DNA from: Clostridiaceae bacterium
GTDB lineage: Bacteria > Bacillota > Clostridia > TANB77 > CAG-508
Direction of reading: 5' to 3'
DNA: 64,000 nt
Assembly (NCBI GenBank): GCA_012513065.1
Contig: JAAZCX010000064.1
Location: 4,046-68,045 of the forward strand
A model generated the notes under the pieces. The model worked only from the letters and a program-made list of their open reading frames with translations, ran no database searches and was not told where the DNA came from. Positions 34,451 through 45,838 of this stretch are shown piece after piece (within the stretch, counting starts at the first letter, position 1; each line of letters begins with the position of its first letter). The position numbers and the translations under genes were made by a program.

Positions 34451-34566
34451 ATGAGAGGTATATCAATAGAAGAGCGTGCAGTAGAATTAGCACACTACAT
34501 AATAGACTCAAAAGATACAGTAAGAGGAGCAGCTAAGAAATTTGGAATAAGCAAAAGTACAGTACA
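34451..34566 (+). CDS. spoIIID: spoIIID 5' segment (HTH part), interrupted
   Basis: MRGISIEERAVELAHYIIDSKDTVRGAAKKFGISKSTVH aligns with the SpoIIID N-terminus (...KTVRVIAKEFGVSKSTVHKDL...). After 34566 the ORF runs into unrelated sequence and stops at 34636. Confidence 0.85.
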
Positions 34567-34593
34567 CACGGAAGTGAGCAAAGTGGAGATTTT
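34560..34593. repeat. left junction (attL-like): core CAGTACA plus element-side arm CAAAGTGGAGATTTT
   Basis: Core at 34560..34566. The 15-bp arm at 34579..34593 is the exact reverse complement of 45659..45673. Confidence 0.75.
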
Positions 34594-34721
34594 TACAATA
34601 CCGTCAAGTATTGAATTATTAAGGGGGACATGCTAATTTTTTTGATATTTATCTAAAAGAAGAATTTGAAGAGGCTGGTTTAGAAAGTAGAATAGTAGCT
34701 ACTACGAAAAAATTTGTAATT

Positions 34722-35273
34722 ATGCCGATGGTTGGACCTTTGGTTCCGGGATATTTGTTAATAGTACCAAAGGATCATTATTTATCAATTTCACAATTAC
34801 CTAAAGAGCAAGTTGAGGAATTAAAAATAATAAAAGATGAATTACAAAAAGTATTTAACGAAACATATGGAGAGTGTGTATTTTATGAACATGGAGCTTT
34901 ATCATGTTCTTTAAAAGGTGGAAGTTGTTCAGATCATGCTCATTTACATATTGTTGCTGTTAATACAGATGTAAAGGATAAGTTTGCTGATTATGGGTTC
35001 GAATTAAGAAAGATTGATGATTATTCAGAAATAATAAATCAAAAGGAAAAAAATGTACCATATCTTTATTATGAAAATCAAAAAAATGAAATGTTTATGG
35101 CTGATGCACCAGTCGTAGAATCTCAATTTATAAGAAAATTAATTGCAAAAGATATTGATGCAATTGATAGAGCTTTATGGAATGAAAATATAAGAAAAGA
35201 TTGGATGATTGATATAATAAAAAAATTACGTCCTCATTTTGAAGAATTGAAAGGAACGTCAATATGGGAATAA
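34722..35273 (+). CDS. HIT-family (histidine triad) nucleotide hydrolase/transferase-like protein with a C-terminal extension
   Basis: PGYLLIVPKDH and the triad DHAHLHIV. The frame is open from 34623 with HIT-like sequence (FFDIYLKEEFEEAGLESRIVATTKKFVIMP), so the true start is probably ATG 34630, which is out of frame by one base across a T7 run. Confidence 0.7.
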   Translation: MPMVGPLVPGYLLIVPKDHYLSISQLPKEQVEELKIIKDELQKVFNETYGECVFYEHGALSCSLKGGSCSDHAHLHIVAVNTDVKDKFADYGFELRKIDDYSEIINQKEKNVPYLYYENQKNEMFMADAPVVESQFIRKLIAKDIDAIDRALWNENIRKDWMIDIIKKLRPHFEELKGTSIWE

Positions 35274-36212
35274 AACAATTTATTGGTATTAAATGGATAG
35301 ACAATAAACCGAGAATGTTATTTTATAATAATGATGAAAAACAATTAGATTTTGAAGAATGTGAAGGTACTGTATATATAAAAAAATTACAAGAAAAAAG
35401 ATGTAGAGGTTATTATGATTTAGAAAAAAAAGAGATAAAACCTTGTAAAAAATATGTAGATTTAACTCGGAACAATGTTTTCTCAATGTAAGGAATGTCA
35501 AAGCAGTTCTGGATTTGATTTATGTTTAGGATGTACAGGAGATAATTGCAGAACAATTAGTGATAAGGCAAAAAAATTTTGTAATGAAGAGCATCATGTA
35601 TATTTAGCTTATTTTGCAAATGATAAATTAAAAGTTGGGACTGCAGCTAGTTATAGAAGATATGAAAGATTATTAGAACAAGGGGCTTTGTATTCGATTT
35701 TTTTAGCTAAAGTGCCTAGTGGAAAACTAGCAAGAAAAATTGAAAGTGAAATTTCAAAATTAGGTATTACAACAAGAGTAAATTCATCTTATAAAATAAG
35801 TAATTTTGTTATAACTAGAAATCAAGATGAAATAAATAATATACTTATGAATGAATATGAAAATATACTAAGGAAAATGGATGAAAAGTATAAAAAATTC
35901 TTTATAAGGCCAGAATACAATAATTTTACAAGAATATCAGATGCTGTAAAAAATAGTTTAATAGAAGAAAATAGACAACTAAATCTTTTCGGAGAAATGG
36001 AACAACCTGAAAGTAAAGAGTATAGTAAAGTAGTAAAACCTGAAAGTGTTAGAGGAAATATAAGAGCAGTTGTAGGTAGTTTAATGCTAATAGAAAAAGA
36101 TAAAGAGTATTCTGTGATAAATATGAAGAATTTAGAAGGTTATGTAGTAAATTTTGATAGAAAGTTAGAGGAATTAGATAAAGATGAATGCTTTGATAAA
36201 GGCGGAAGATAG
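35264..36212 (+). CDS. Cys-rich protein resembling DUF2797, frame break at in-frame CGG 35468..35470
   Basis: ORF-track pieces 35264..35491 and 35475..36212 belong together. After the junction ...CKKYVDLT|GTMFSQCKECQSSSGFDLCLGCTGDNC comes HHVYLAYFANDKLKVGTA.... The family assignment is from memory only. Confidence 0.55.
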
Positions 36213-43724: not shown

Positions 43725-43780
43725 AAGTAATATTATATTTAGATTCTCATATACATTGACTATAAGGAGGGGACAAGTAA

Positions 43781-43909
43781 TTGGTTGATAGTGATGTTAA
43801 TATAAAAATAATAAATCCTAATACAGATAAACAAGTAGAAGAAGCATTATCTGAAATGATAGCATATCAACTAGCATATAAAAAAATAGATGAAATAAAA
43901 AAGACGTAG
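43781..43909 (+). CDS. unannotated 42-aa ORF upstream of the recombinase
   Basis: TTG start 8 nt after AAGGAGGGG. A hairpin follows: AAAATAAAACTTACT.../...AGTAAGTTTTATTTT. No family recognised. Confidence 0.3.
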   Translation: MVDSDVNIKIINPNTDKQVEEALSEMIAYQLAYKKIDEIKKT

Positions 43910-44056
43910 AAAAAATAAAACTTACTTTTATAGTAAGTTTTATTTTGGTAAACTTGACAATATTTTTGAGCAGAGTTAACATCACACACAACTTAAATTA
44001 ATACATCTATAATAATGGATGTTAGTGAACTAACAAGTTGAGAGGAGTGATATTAT

Positions 44057-45838
44057 ATGCTAAGAGTTGCGGCATATTGTAGGGTAAGTACAGAGAAAGA
44101 ACAGCAATTAGATTCCTTAGAAAAACAAAAAGAATTCTTTAGTGAATTTGCAAAACAAAATAACTATCAATTGGTATATATATATGCTGATGAAGGAATT
44201 ACAGGAAGACAAACTAAAAAAAGAGAACAATTTAATCAAATGATGAGAGATGCAAAAAAAGGAATGTTTGATTTAATTGCAGTTAAGGATATTACAAGAT
44301 TTGCTAGAAATACGGTTGATTTATTAGTAAATGTTAGAGAGCTTAAATCTATAAATGTTGAGGTTCAGTTTGTAAGTAATAGTTATAAAACATTAGGAAA
44401 TTCAGAATTTATATTAACTGTATATGGAGCAATTGCACAAGAAGAAAGTGCAGGTTTATCTAAAAAAGTTAAGTTTGGAAAAGATATTACTGCAAAGAAA
44501 GGAAGAGTACCAAATTTTGTTTTTGGTTATAACAAAATAGAAAATGAAAAATATACTCTTCAAATAAATGAAGAAGAAGCTAAAATTGTAAAAGAAATAT
44601 TTGATTTATATGTAAATAAACGATATGGAAATGCAAAAATTGCTAAAATATTAAATAACAGAGGATTACGAACTAAACGATCAGGTGCATTATATCAACC
44701 AGAAAATGTTGGTAGAATATTATCACATAAAATATACATAGGTGATGTAGAAAACAAGAAAAGTCAGGTAGTTGACTTTTTAACAGGGAGAAGAGAAAAA
44801 ATACCTGAAGAAGAACATATTATAGTACATAATGAAAGTTTAAGAATAATACCTGATGAATTATTTTATAAAGCCCAAGAGATTAAAGCAGAAAATTTAG
44901 TTAAAACAAGACAAAATTTTATAAAATCAAAAGCATCTAATAAATTTATATTTAGTACATTAATAAAATGTGAACATTGTGGATATTCATTTTTTAGAGA
45001 AGAACGACAATATAAGAATCATTTCATCAGATGGAAATGTTTAGGAAAGAAGAATTTAGGAAGAATTTTTTGTGATAATGATATGGCAATAGAAGAGGAA
45101 GAGTTAGTTGATGCAATAAAAAAATATTTTGAAGGGATAGTTTCTAATAAAAAAGATTTTATAAATAAAACAATAAATAAATATAACAGAATTATGCAAG
45201 AAAATAATAAGGATATAAAAACTGATAAGGAATTAAATAAAAACTTGGAAAAGTTAAAGGCTACAAAGAAAAAGTATATAGATATGTATGCAAGTGATAT
45301 GATTGATGATGAAGAATATAAGGAATTAACAGATAACATTAATATAAAAATAAAAGATATAAAAGCTCAAATGCAAATGTTAAAATTCACTATGGCTGAT
45401 GAAGAAACGTTGAATAAAGATATAAAAGATAAAATGCAAGAAATTGAAAATATACTTAATGGTAATGAATTTACAAATGAAGGATTGAAAAAAATAATAG
45501 ATGTAATAAATGTAAATAAAAATGGTAATGTAGAAATTATATTAAAAGGAATAACTAATTTCAGTTATGATAATGAAATAATAGTTAGAGACATAGTGGA
45601 AGAAAGTCAAAAATTGTCTAAAAAATCTGAAATTGTCGAATTGAGTGAGCAAATTGATAAAATCTCCACTTTGGACAATTCAGTACATAAAGATTTAAGT
45701 GAGAGAATCATTAAGATAAATCCTGCCTTATCAGCAGAAGTAAGATTAGTATTAGATGAAAATAAAGCAGAAAGACACATAAGGGGAGGTATGGCGACAA
45801 AATTAAAATATAGCCATATTAAAGAGAAAACAAATTAG
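44057..45838 (+). CDS. large serine recombinase; the ORF continues through the right junction into the spoIIID 3' segment
   Basis: Resolvase domain with catalytic Ser (AAYCRVSTEKEQ), recombinase domain, zinc ribbon (CEHCGYSF...WKCLG...FCDN) and a long coiled-coil. The last 50 residues are the SpoIIID C-terminus. Confidence 0.9.
   Translation: MLRVAAYCRVSTEKEQQLDSLEKQKEFFSEFAKQNNYQLVYIYADEGITGRQTKKREQFNQMMRDAKKGMFDLIAVKDITRFARNTVDLLVNVRELKSINVEVQFVSNSYKTLGNSEFILTVYGAIAQEESAGLSKKVKFGKDITAKKGRVPNFVFGYNKIENEKYTLQINEEEAKIVKEIFDLYVNKRYGNAKIAKILNNRGLRTKRSGALYQPENVGRILSHKIYIGDVENKKSQVVDFLTGRREKIPEEEHIIVHNESLRIIPDELFYKAQEIKAENLVKTRQNFIKSKASNKFIFSTLIKCEHCGYSFFREERQYKNHFIRWKCLGKKNLGRIFCDNDMAIEEEELVDAIKKYFEGIVSNKKDFINKTINKYNRIMQENNKDIKTDKELNKNLEKLKATKKKYIDMYASDMIDDEEYKELTDNINIKIKDIKAQMQMLKFTMADEETLNKDIKDKMQEIENILNGNEFTNEGLKKIIDVINVNKNGNVEIILKGITNFSYDNEIIVRDIVEESQKLSKKSEIVELSEQIDKISTLDNSVHKDLSERIIKINPALSAEVRLVLDENKAERHIRGGMATKLKYSHIKEKTN
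45659..45687. repeat. right junction (attR-like): element-side arm AAAATCTCCACTTTG plus core CAGTACA
   Basis: Arm at 45659..45673 and core at 45681..45687. See the left junction. Confidence 0.75.
45688..45838 (+). CDS. spoIIID: spoIIID 3' segment (basic C-terminal DNA-binding part)
   Basis: KDLSERIIKINPALSAEVRLVLDENKAERHIRGGMATKLKYSHIKEKTN compares with B. subtilis KDLTERLPEINPDLANEVKEILDYHKSIRGHLGGESTKLKYK (from memory). Confidence 0.85.

What the first reader, a model, noticed from the sequence alone, without database searches (positions are those of the whole stretch)
34451..45838. spoIIID is split by an 11.1-kb intervening element with its own large serine recombinase (skin-like, but in spoIIID)
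34451..34566 encodes the N-terminal HTH of the mother-cell regulator SpoIIID (…AAKKFGISKSTVH), after which the similarity ends abruptly. The missing C-terminus (KDLSERIIKINPALSAEVRLVLDENKAERHIRGGMATKLKYSHIKEKTN) lies on the same strand at 45688..45838. Both breakpoints carry CAGTACA in the same codon phase (GTA CA|). Joining 34566 to 45688 gives an uninterrupted 88-codon gene, close to the 93 aa of B. subtilis SpoIIID. The 11,121 bp in between end with a large serine recombinase gene. This is the architecture of developmentally excised elements such as skin in sigK or SPbeta in spsM. I do not recall such an element being described in spoIIID. SpoIIID acts upstream of sigma-K, so excision here would gate the mother-cell programme one step earlier than skin does. 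The recombinase would therefore have to be expressed without SpoIIID, for example from a sigma-E promoter.
Basis: partly seen in the sequence, partly recalled or inferred. Interest (0 to 1): 0.92.

Follow-up and report, generated by a model that had tools for sequence, protein, structure and literature searches.

The report
Excisable 11-kb element splitting spoIIID
The sporulation regulator gene spoIIID of an uncultured, very AT-rich gut Clostridia bacterium is cut in two by an 11.1-kb element with its own large serine recombinase; the precisely rejoined gene also occurs in nature, and dozens of related elements sit at the same codon, so spoIIID is a recurrent, almost unstudied target of "skin-like" gene-splitting elements.

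Summary
The N half of spoIIID is at 34451..34566 and the C half at 45688..45838. Both junctions carry CAGTACA in the same codon phase. The joined 88-aa product passes the curated SpoIIID thresholds.

The boundaries are real recombination sites. The reconstructed attP has a 15-bp perfect inverted repeat and a unique dyad centre on the CA at 34565-66 / 45686-87. Two metagenome contigs carry exactly the predicted empty site.

The element is not unique. 72 of the 120 closest recombinase clusters (100% down to 42% identity) read into a SpoIIID C half at the same ..SVH|KD.. position. One relative is seen both integrated and in attP form. Relatives carry a relaxase or type IV secretion genes. The window's copy has no phage or transfer genes.

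A conserved module lies upstream of the recombinase. It has an HTH protein and a 42-aa protein behind a sigma-E-like promoter motif. The recombinase itself has a sigma-A-like promoter.

Excision in the sporulating mother cell is inferred, not shown.

The target is not unprecedented. Galperin et al. 2022 list a 64.7-kb skin-like element in spoIIID of Ruminiclostridium cellulolyticum.

Verdict: a new, well-supported member of a known kind, with moderate to high interest.

The parts
34387..34415 (+). Promoter-like region of spoIIID: TCATAAT ... GAATACAAT, a mother-cell-type -10-like box. A GGAGG ribosome-binding site follows at 34436-34440.
   Evidence: Read. The GAATACA(A/C)T box and the leader are conserved upstream of the split allele in L070 and of the intact allele in L056. 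The sigma-factor assignment is inferred from the consensus in PMC3789822.
34451..34566 (+). spoIIID 5' half (codons 1-38 plus 2 nt). It encodes the helix-turn-helix up to ..SKSTVH. In the integrated state the ORF continues to 34636, giving a 61-aa product.
   Evidence: The 61-aa ORF (P0244) lies on at least 18 contigs from many samples.
34560..34566 (+). attL core CAGTACA. The predicted crossover dinucleotide is the CA at 34565-34566.
   Evidence: Core identity. The dyad centre of the reconstructed attP falls uniquely on this CA: 20/25 matches versus at most 11 for every other centre.
34567..34596 (+). Element-side arm of attL, which is the right arm of attP. It contains the inverted-repeat arm CAAAGTGGAGATTTT at 34579-34593.
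34722..37458 (.). Cargo block 1: HIT-like protein (34722-35273, +), 75-aa ORF, DUF2797 protein (35475-36212, +), 284-aa protein of unknown function (36184-37038, +) and NUDIX hydrolase (37054-37458, -).
   Evidence: Pfam. PHROGs gave only uncharacterised families. PADLOC gave NUDIX = PDC-S07, E 2e-11.
37564..38717 (+). Broken class-V aminotransferase (cysteine desulfurase-like) gene. A 48-aa N-terminal piece and a 239-aa C-terminal piece remain; about 100 residues of the profile are missing.
   Evidence: Pfam PF00266 profile positions 1-41 and 147-370. The same break is present in other contigs.
39393..42435 (+). Cargo block 2, a surface-glycan modification cassette: GtrA-like protein (39393-39842), polyprenol-phosphate GT2 glycosyltransferase (39874-40824) and a 532-aa polytopic membrane protein (40837-42435).
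   Evidence: Pfam. NCBIfam PgfS-like, 318 bits, below the cut-off. The role of the 532-aa protein is inferred from position and hydrophobicity only.
42685..43098 (+). 137-aa protein with a signal-peptide-like N terminus, in a G+C-rich patch (35% against about 25%). A strong terminator-like hairpin follows at 43147-43177.
43296..43724 (+). Conserved about-140-aa helix-turn-helix protein of the recombination module (candidate regulator).
   Evidence: 46-54% identical to the genes in the same position in L001 and L055, and 29% to the one in L070. Weak sigma-70 region-4-like HTH.
43730..43757 (+). Sigma-E-type promoter-like motif ATATT-N15-TATACATT, just upstream of the small ORF.
   Evidence: Both boxes are conserved while the spacer varies across window, L001 and L055. 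The pattern occurs 3 times in the window against 0.83 expected. Consensus taken from PMC3789822. Function is inferred.
43781..43909 (+). 42-aa acidic protein (MVDSDVNIKIINPNTDKQVEEALSEMIAYQLAYKKIDEIKKT), the candidate recombination directionality factor. A hairpin plus T-run follows at about 43916-43946.
   Evidence: The I(N/D)PNT..Q.E.AL...AYQLA motif is conserved next to recombinases of only 49-75% identity. It sits immediately upstream of the recombinase gene. The role is inferred.
43954..43991 (+). Conserved 38-nt block containing the sigma-A-type promoter TTGACA-17-TAACAT, upstream of the recombinase gene.
   Evidence: identical in L055, whose recombinase is only about 66% identical. The L070/L072 group has TTGAAA-17-TAAAAT at the same place.
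44057..45687 (+). Large serine recombinase proper. The ORF as it stands runs to 45838, 593 aa, because it reads in frame into the spoIIID 3' half.
   Evidence: Pfam Resolvase, Recombinase and Zn_ribbon_recom. Alignment A1. PDB 3G13 matches the N-terminal domain and 2L0K (SpoIIID) matches residues 537-586.
45657..45687 (+). Element-side arm of attR, which is the left arm of attP, with the inverted-repeat arm AAAATCTCCACTTTG at 45659-45673 and the core CAGTACA at 45681-45687. It encodes the recombinase tail ..DKISTLDNSVH.
45688..45838 (+). spoIIID 3' half: the last base of the His-39 codon, codons 40-88 and the stop.

Best explanation
This is a gene-intervening element of the skin type, 11,121 bp long, inserted in the only spoIIID copy seen at the native spoIIID locus of an uncultured gut Clostridia bacterium (G+C 25%).

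The element's own large serine recombinase (LSR) recombines attL (34560-66) with attR (45681-87) at the central CA. This releases a circle carrying a dyad-symmetric attP and restores an 88-codon spoIIID.

Proposed control:
- The recombinase is made from a sigma-A-type promoter.
- Direction and timing come from the adjacent 42-aa protein (43781-43909), which acts as a recombination directionality factor.
- That protein is transcribed from a sigma-E-type promoter.
- Excision therefore happens in the mother cell after asymmetric division. SpoIIID can then be made, and the forespore keeps the element.

Shown here: the split, the exact att sites, the existence of the precise empty site in nature, a relative seen in both attR and attP forms, a large family using the same codon, and intact late sporulation genes in the host.

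Inferred: the sporulation-specific timing, the identity of the directionality factor, and the promoter assignments.

The family descends from integrative mobilisable or conjugative elements. The window's copy has lost, or never had, transfer genes. It carries a surface-glycan modification cassette and nucleotide-metabolism-like genes.
For: Split and rejoin:
- The halves are at 34451..34566 and 45688..45838.
- The joined product is SpoIIID: PF12116 at 126 bits and TIGR02844 at 121.6 bits against a cut-off of 111.5.

att sites:
- The reconstructed attP is symmetric at 23/30 (29/40), with a perfect 15-bp inverted repeat and a unique centre on CA.
- Two relatives with different arm sequences show the same centre: L070 reconstructed at 20/30 and L055 read directly at 19/30.

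Empty site:
- P0124 is the exact predicted 88-aa protein.
- Contigs L053 and L054 join window 34566 to 45681 with only the 7-nt core shared.

Family:
- 72 of the 120 best LSR clusters carry a fused SpoIIID C half.
- All join at ..[ST][ST]VH|KD...
- L072-type elements, which are very common, use the same site out of frame.

Excision competence of the family:
- P0018 (attR form) and P0046 (attP form) are identical up to ..DTSVH and then diverge.
- They have identical upstream genes.

Native locus and spore-former host:
- The downstream synteny yabG-veg-sipL-yunB matches that of relatives with an intact, 91%-identical spoIIID.
- Intact spoVAC-spoVAD-spoVAEB genes lie in the window.
- The spoIIID halves of split alleles show dN/dS of 0.05-0.18.

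Control module:
- The HTH protein and the small protein are conserved.
- A sigma-E-like motif is conserved upstream of the small ORF.
- A sigma-A-like block is conserved upstream of the LSR.
- This layout parallels C. difficile skin, where a constitutive recombinase is paired with a sigma-E-dependent directionality factor (abstract of PMC5025042).
Against: - No data link excision to sporulation.
- The two empty-site contigs are short (about 1.1 kb). They come from samples in which I did not see the integrated form, so they may represent element-free strains rather than excision products.
- The attP-form ORF of this particular element is not in the 15-billion-protein collection. Its attP and attB sequences are absent from the JGI metagenome contigs.
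- Promoter-like motifs are cheap in 25% G+C DNA. 7 of 100 shuffles gave at least 3 matches to the sigma-E-like pattern.
- The more distant L070 group shows no clear sigma-E motif.
- The low dN/dS could have accumulated before recent insertions.
- Only one 64-kb window of the genome was seen (its longest known contig is 93 kb), so a second spoIIID elsewhere cannot be excluded.
Confidence: 0.62

Rival explanations
1. This is an ordinary integrative mobile element (a remnant of an integrative mobilisable or conjugative element) that uses the conserved spoIIID helix-turn-helix coding sequence merely as a convenient attB. Excision, if any, serves transfer and is not tied to sporulation. Carriers are spoIIID-null and sporulation-deficient, or they sporulate only after rare stochastic excision. 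The intact contigs come from element-free strains.
For: - Relatives carry a Mob_Pre relaxase (L070) or type IV secretion genes (L055), so they are bona fide mobile elements.
- The recombinase has a sigma-A-type promoter.
- The empty-site contigs were not shown to coexist with the integrated form.
- In C. botulinum the yin element in yabG excises heterogeneously at all time points (PMC10747680).
Against: - The window's element has no transfer or phage genes. It has host-like G+C and a decayed cargo gene, so it looks resident rather than mobile.
- It is still the predominant form across many samples (at least 18 attL contigs), and both spoIIID halves are undamaged.
- Late sporulation genes nearby are intact. 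That would be unexpected in a lineage that had lost SpoIIID.
- A sigma-E-like motif is conserved in front of the small ORF.
Confidence: 0.27
2. The split copy is a dead relic. A second, intact spoIIID elsewhere in the genome supplies the function, so the element has no regulatory consequence.
For: Only 64 kb of the genome is available (its longest known contig is 93 kb). Phage-borne intact SpoIIID homologues exist in viral contigs, so extra copies are conceivable.
Against: - The split copy sits at the syntenic spoIIID position, upstream of yabG-veg-sipL-yunB, as in relatives with an intact gene.
- Both halves are 100% identical in protein to the intact allele P0124 and show no decay.
- The promoter and leader are conserved.
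- Spore formers normally have a single spoIIID (general knowledge).
Confidence: 0.07
3. The arrangement is an assembly chimera that joins unrelated DNA inside spoIIID.
For: None beyond the general risk in metagenome assemblies.
Against: - The same attL and attR junctions recur in independent assemblies and samples from ENA and Logan.
- The reconstructed attP has a dyad symmetry that no chimera would create.
- Dozens of diverged homologues share the junction.
Confidence: 0.01

Closest known systems
Skin-like element in spoIIID of Ruminiclostridium cellulolyticum H10 (Ccel_3110/Ccel_3179; Galperin et al. 2022, Table S3)
   Same: Same target gene. Judging from the fragment lengths (126 nt and 144 nt), the position in the gene is about the same. 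[quoted passage not shown] That case also rests on sequence only.
   Different: - The R. cellulolyticum element is 64.7 kb against 11.1 kb here.
- Its recombinase (Ccel_3111, 511 aa) lies at the other end, next to the N-terminal fragment on the opposite strand. The element is therefore in the opposite orientation and probably belongs to an independent recombinase lineage.
- No family, att sites, empty site or control module were described there.
- I could not fetch that genome to compare sequences.
skin of Clostridioides difficile (sigK; recombinase CD1231 plus directionality factor CD1234; PMC5025042)
   Same: A small (14.6 kb), non-lytic element in a mother-cell regulator gene of a clostridium, with a large serine recombinase at its edge. 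The proposed logic is the same: the recombinase is available and a small acidic factor, made in the mother cell, sets the timing.
   Different: The target is sigK, one step downstream of SpoIIID. The factor and the timing are experimentally proven there and not here. No detectable sequence relation was found between the 42-aa protein and any known family.
skin of Bacillus subtilis (sigK; SpoIVCA)
   Same: The founding example: a large serine recombinase rejoins a split mother-cell regulator gene, and the germ line keeps the element.
   Different: It is a 48-kb defective prophage. spoIVCA transcription needs sigma-E plus SpoIIID (legend quoted).
gin element in gerE of Bacillus cereus ATCC 10987 (PMC5595907) and SPbeta SprA/SprB in spsM (PMC4191935, PMC5499854)
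   Same: gin is a non-prophage intervening element in a small HTH regulator gene of the mother cell. SPbeta has sprB, a small directionality factor with a sigma-E/K promoter, immediately beside the constitutively expressed sprA.
   Different: Different target genes and host class (Bacilli). SPbeta is an active phage. The window's element shows no phage genes, and its relatives are mobilisable or conjugative.

Membership tests
Sporulation-gene intervening element (skin-like) | Inserted inside the coding sequence of a mother-cell-expressed sporulation gene | tested here: met
   spoIIID is split after codon 38 at the syntenic spoIIID locus.
Sporulation-gene intervening element (skin-like) | Carries its own site-specific recombinase at an edge of the element | tested here: met
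   The large serine recombinase at 44057-45687 abuts and overlaps attR.
Sporulation-gene intervening element (skin-like) | Short identical core at both junctions, with attP-type inverted repeats on the element side | tested here: met
   7-bp core. attP dyad of 23/30 with a 15-bp perfect repeat and a unique centre.
Sporulation-gene intervening element (skin-like) | Precise excision restores an intact functional ORF | tested here: met
   The in-silico join gives an 88-aa SpoIIID above the equivalog cut-off. The identical joined gene occurs in contigs L053 and L054. Whether those arose by excision is unknown.
Sporulation-gene intervening element (skin-like) | Excision is developmentally regulated (mother cell, during sporulation) and the element is retained in the spore genome | not testable with these tools
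   Only indirect evidence: a conserved sigma-E-like motif before the small ORF and the predominance of the integrated form in many samples.
Sporulation-gene intervening element (skin-like) | A recombination directionality factor encoded in the element | tested here: inconclusive
   A conserved 42-48-aa acidic protein lies immediately upstream of the recombinase in 4-5 diverged elements. It matches no known family and no interaction test was possible.
Large serine recombinase (integrase type) | N-terminal resolvase catalytic domain with the nucleophilic serine, plus a recombinase domain and a zinc-ribbon domain | tested here: met
   PF00239 at 105 bits, PF07508 at 76 bits and PF13408 at 36 bits. 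The invariant YCRVST motif (S11) is present in alignment A1.
Prophage or defective prophage | Phage structural, packaging, lysis or replication genes | tested here: not met
   PHROGs gave no hit with a known phage function and Pfam gave none. IMG/VR holds no close relative flanked by spoIIID halves.
Integrative conjugative or mobilisable element | Relaxase and/or type IV secretion or coupling protein genes | tested here: not met
   None in the window's element. The feature is met in relatives: Mob_Pre in L070 and L072, TraG/VirD4 and TrbL in L055.

The most novel reading that the evidence does not exclude
In many uncultured gut Clostridia, production of SpoIIID, and hence the whole middle and late mother-cell programme, is made conditional on a DNA rearrangement. 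The rearrangement is carried out by a diverse, horizontally spreading family of recombinase elements. These derive from mobilisable or conjugative elements, not from phages, and all target the codons for the SpoIIID recognition helix. A sigma-E-driven 42-aa directionality factor triggers excision. These elements would then act as a widespread, transmissible checkpoint, or a modulator of sporulation frequency, one tier above skin.
Probability: 0.45. Interest if true: 0.72.

Novelty: new member of a known kind. Interest (0 to 1): 0.57.

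Why it matters
SpoIIID sits between sigma-E and sigma-K in the mother-cell cascade. 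If its gene must be rebuilt by excision, the DNA-rearrangement checkpoint known from sigK acts one tier earlier. It must then be wired without SpoIIID, unlike B. subtilis spoIVCA.

The data also show that this is not a one-off. A large family of recombinases, many in abundant gut bacteria, uses the same codon of spoIIID. Its members range from conjugative and mobilisable elements to a stripped 11-kb resident. That gives a natural series for studying how mobile elements become developmental switches.

It also has practical consequences:
- Automatic annotation calls these genes 'recombinase family protein' and misses spoIIID. Sporulation capacity of gut metagenome-assembled genomes will therefore be under-called.
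- The family offers a set of recombinases that share one attB but have different attP arms.

Tried and rejected
1. A genome-contig scan with the recombinase returned only unrelated recombinases at about 35% identity.
2. An exact look-up of this element's predicted attP-form recombinase ORF (566 aa) found nothing in the collection.
3. Exact DNA scans of the JGI metagenome contigs for this element's attP and attB gave 0 hits each. The host is probably not represented there.
4. An IMG/VR scan with a SpoIIID alignment found only intact phage-borne homologues. A scan with a recombinase alignment found none of 80 loci flanked by a SpoIIID half. I therefore rejected a prophage origin.
5. A search of the 50%-identity representative proteins with the C-terminal 164 aa was not informative on family size. 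It returned one full-length fused representative and otherwise SpoIIID-sized proteins and fragments.
6. Rfam and tRNA scans of the window found nothing, so this is not a tRNA-type integration site.
7. I rejected a functional recombinase-SpoIIID fusion protein as a requirement. The very common L072/P0110 lineage has the C half in the +1 frame relative to the recombinase.
8. PADLOC found only a NUDIX match to PDC-S07 and no recognisable defence system.
9. A sigma-E-like motif upstream of the small ORF in the distant L070 group could not be identified convincingly.

Full report
OBSERVATION

The window has 24.7% G+C. At 34451 an ORF starts with MRGISIEERAVELAHYIIDSKDTVRGAAKKFGISKSTVH. It then continues with 22 unrelated residues to a stop at 34636.

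At 45688..45838, on the same strand, lies (H)KDLSERIIKINPALSAEVRLVLDENKAERHIRGGMATKLKYSHIKEKTN*.

Both junctions carry CAGTACA (34560-66 and 45681-87), with GTA as a codon in each frame. Joining 34566 to 45688 gives 88 codons. The product scores 126 bits on Pfam SpoIIID. It scores 121.6 bits on NCBIfam TIGR02844, above the curated cut-off of 111.5, whereas the C half alone reaches 62.8 bits. It aligns along its length with B. subtilis SpoIIID.

A tblastn search finds no other SpoIIID-like sequence in the 64 kb.

The last gene of the insert is a large serine recombinase (LSR) with Resolvase, Recombinase and Zn_ribbon_recom domains. Its ORF (44057..45838, 593 aa) has no stop of its own and reads in frame into the spoIIID C half.

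THE BOUNDARIES ARE RECOMBINATION SITES

I swapped the arms of attL and attR to reconstruct attP:

gataaaatctccactttggacaattcagtaCAcacggaagtgagcaaagtggagatttttac

It has a perfect 15-bp inverted repeat (AAAATCTCCACTTTG / CAAAGTGGAGATTTT), each arm 12 nt from a central CA. Overall symmetry is 23/30 (29/40). A scan of all possible centres gives 20/25 matches at this CA and at most 11 anywhere else.

The reconstructed attB, which is the spoIIID coding sequence, is only weakly symmetric (8/30). That is usual for bacterial attachment sites of this recombinase class.

The predicted crossover dinucleotide is therefore 34565-66 / 45686-87, inside the 7-bp core.

THE EMPTY SITE EXISTS

A protein search with the joined sequence returned P0124, which is 100% identical over all 88 residues. 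Its two contigs are L054 (SRR8925794) and L053 (SRR29243426).

- L054 matches window 33733-34566 and then 45681-45922.
- L053 matches window 34430-34566 and then 45681-46254.
- In both, the 7-nt core is the only overlap, at 99.1-100% identity.

The integrated form is much more common. The 61-aa attL ORF is on at least 18 contigs from many samples, and the attR-spanning recombinase is on 9.

I could not show that both forms coexist in one sample. The empty sites may therefore be excision products or element-free strains.

A LARGE FAMILY USES THE SAME CODON

Of the 120 best clusters found with the recombinase, 72 carry Resolvase, Recombinase, Zn_ribbon and SpoIIID (PF12116) in one ORF. Their identity to the query ranges from 100% down to 42%. 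In an alignment of 16 such proteins the SpoIIID part always starts at ..[ST][ST]VH|KD[LV].ER.

Contexts of four relatives were examined.

- L001 (75% identity): the element is longer than 10 kb. Downstream lie yabG, veg, sipL and the spoIIA operon.
- L070 (50% identity): a complete element of about 9.9 kb with a Mob_Pre relaxase between the two spoIIID halves. Its reconstructed attP has 20/30 symmetry on the same CA but with different arm sequences.
- L073 and L055: P0018 (attR form) and P0046 are identical up to ..DTSVH and then diverge. P0046 reads across a directly observed attP (19/30 symmetry) into element DNA that carries TraG/VirD4 and TrbL genes. The genes upstream of the recombinase are the same in both contigs. 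One conjugative-type member is thus seen both integrated and excised.
- L072 (P0110, indexed in about 395 blocks of the collection): it sits at the same spoIIID site upstream of yabG-veg-sipL. The C half is in the +1 frame relative to the recombinase.

The in-frame fusion is therefore a by-product of attP lying inside the 3' end of the recombinase gene. It is not a requirement.

The arms of attP differ between lineages while attB stays the same. This is the expected pattern for diverging recombinases that keep one conserved chromosomal target.

HOST AND LOCUS

The gene order downstream of the split gene is zf_Tbcl, DUF898, yabG, veg, sipL, yunB. It matches relatives whose intact SpoIIID is 91% identical, where the order is spoIIID-yabG-veg-sipL-yunB. 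The window also has intact spoVAC-spoVAD-spoVAEB genes.

The spoIIID promoter and leader region, with a GAATACAAT box, is conserved between split and intact alleles.

Between split alleles, dN/dS is 0.05 for the N half and 0.07-0.18 for the C half, at dS of 0.6-1.6. This is consistent with continued function, although part of that divergence may predate the insertions.

The source is an uncultured Clostridia bacterium from gut-type metagenomes. No species name could be obtained.

CONTENT OF THE ELEMENT

No phage gene is recognisable (PHROGs). No relaxase or secretion gene is present. The cargo is:

- a HIT-like protein, a DUF2797 protein, a 284-aa protein of unknown function and a NUDIX hydrolase (PADLOC candidate PDC-S07);
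- a broken class-V aminotransferase gene;
- a GtrA / GT2 / 532-aa membrane protein cassette, typical of surface-glycan modification;
- a small secreted-looking protein in a patch of 35% G+C.

The rest of the element has the host's G+C. Together with the pseudogene, this suggests long residence.

CONTROL MODULE

Immediately upstream of the recombinase gene lie a 142-aa HTH protein and a 42-aa acidic protein. Both are conserved in the same positions in L001 and L055, and recognisably in L070.

In front of the small ORF, two boxes are conserved while the spacer varies: ATATT-N15/16-TATACATT at 43730-57 in the window. They fit the mother-cell sigma-E pattern of an ATA -35 element and a CATA-type -10 element described for C. 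difficile (PMC3789822). The pattern occurs 3 times in the window against 0.83 expected.

A hairpin plus T-run follows the small ORF. Then comes a 38-nt block, TTGACA-17-TAACAT-CACACACAA, which is identical in an element whose recombinase is only about 66% identical. The more distant group has TTGAAA-17-TAAAAT at the same place.

My reading is that the recombinase is expressed from a housekeeping-type promoter, and that a small directionality factor is switched on by sigma-E. This is the C. difficile skin and SPbeta logic (PMC5025042, PMC4191935). All of this is inference from motifs.

WHAT IS KNOWN

Intervening elements with large serine recombinases are established for sigK, spsM, spoVFB, spoVR, gerE and yabG.

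For spoIIID, one case has been recorded. Galperin et al. [quoted passage not shown] In the searched library I found no experimental work and no description of a family, att sites or regulation. The library lacks most subscription journals.

The window's element differs from that case in size, in orientation and in the position of the recombinase. It is therefore probably an independent lineage.

VERDICT

- The structural interpretation is supported and considerably extended.
- The developmental timing is plausible but unproven (about 0.6).
- It is a new member of a known kind: the target gene was noted once before, but the family is new.
- Interest is moderate to high.

Noticed in passing
L075-L106 (IMG/VR contigs): 32 viral contigs encode full-length SpoIIID homologues at 42-69% identity, covering about residues 6-80. 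Phage-like contigs therefore carry their own spoIIID-like regulator genes. None of them is a split copy.
   Followed up: no
window 47769-48700 (also L047 13713-14577 and L056 6426-7284): yabG (Peptidase_U57) is called as two consecutive ORFs, of about 234-254 aa and 53 aa. This is so both in the window's organism and in relatives with an intact spoIIID. It may be a conserved frameshift or stop, or a two-gene arrangement.
   Followed up: no
window 42400-43400: A patch of 35% G+C lies in an element and genome of otherwise 25%. It covers a 137-aa protein with a signal-peptide-like N terminus (42685-43098) and a strong terminator hairpin (43147-43177). It looks like a more recent acquisition inside the element.
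   Followed up: partly
window 37564-38717: The class-V aminotransferase (NifS/IscS-like) gene inside the element is broken into a 48-aa and a 239-aa piece, with about 100 residues missing. The same break is present in all other contigs of this element.
   Followed up: partly
window 44057-45838; predicted circle junction 45687/34567: Because attP lies inside the 3' end of the recombinase gene, the recombinase changes its C terminus with its state. Integrated, it is 593 aa and ends in the 50-aa SpoIIID C-terminal DNA-binding half. Excised, it is predicted to be 566 aa and to end in ..SVHTEVSKVEIFTIPSSIELLRGTC. A common sister lineage (L072) is out of frame, so the fusion is probably incidental, but this was not tested.
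   Followed up: partly
MT838016.1 (phages collection): A 6.4-kb unannotated 'Bacteriophage sp.' record from human faeces encodes a recombinase 42% identical to this one, with the match running through query residue 585. It therefore includes the SpoIIID C half. It is probably a host or element fragment deposited as viral.
   Followed up: no
window 18593-20479: A 628-aa surface protein with a thioester domain (TED) and SpaA-type prealbumin-fold repeats, which looks like an adhesin or pilin. A similar TED/SpaA protein lies at the far left edge of L073, inside or next to the related conjugative-type element.
   Followed up: no
window 34636-43100: Almost all element genes are on the same strand as spoIIID, and no terminator-like site is obvious directly after the truncated 61-aa ORF. 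Transcription from the spoIIID promoter could therefore read into the element in the integrated state.
   Followed up: no
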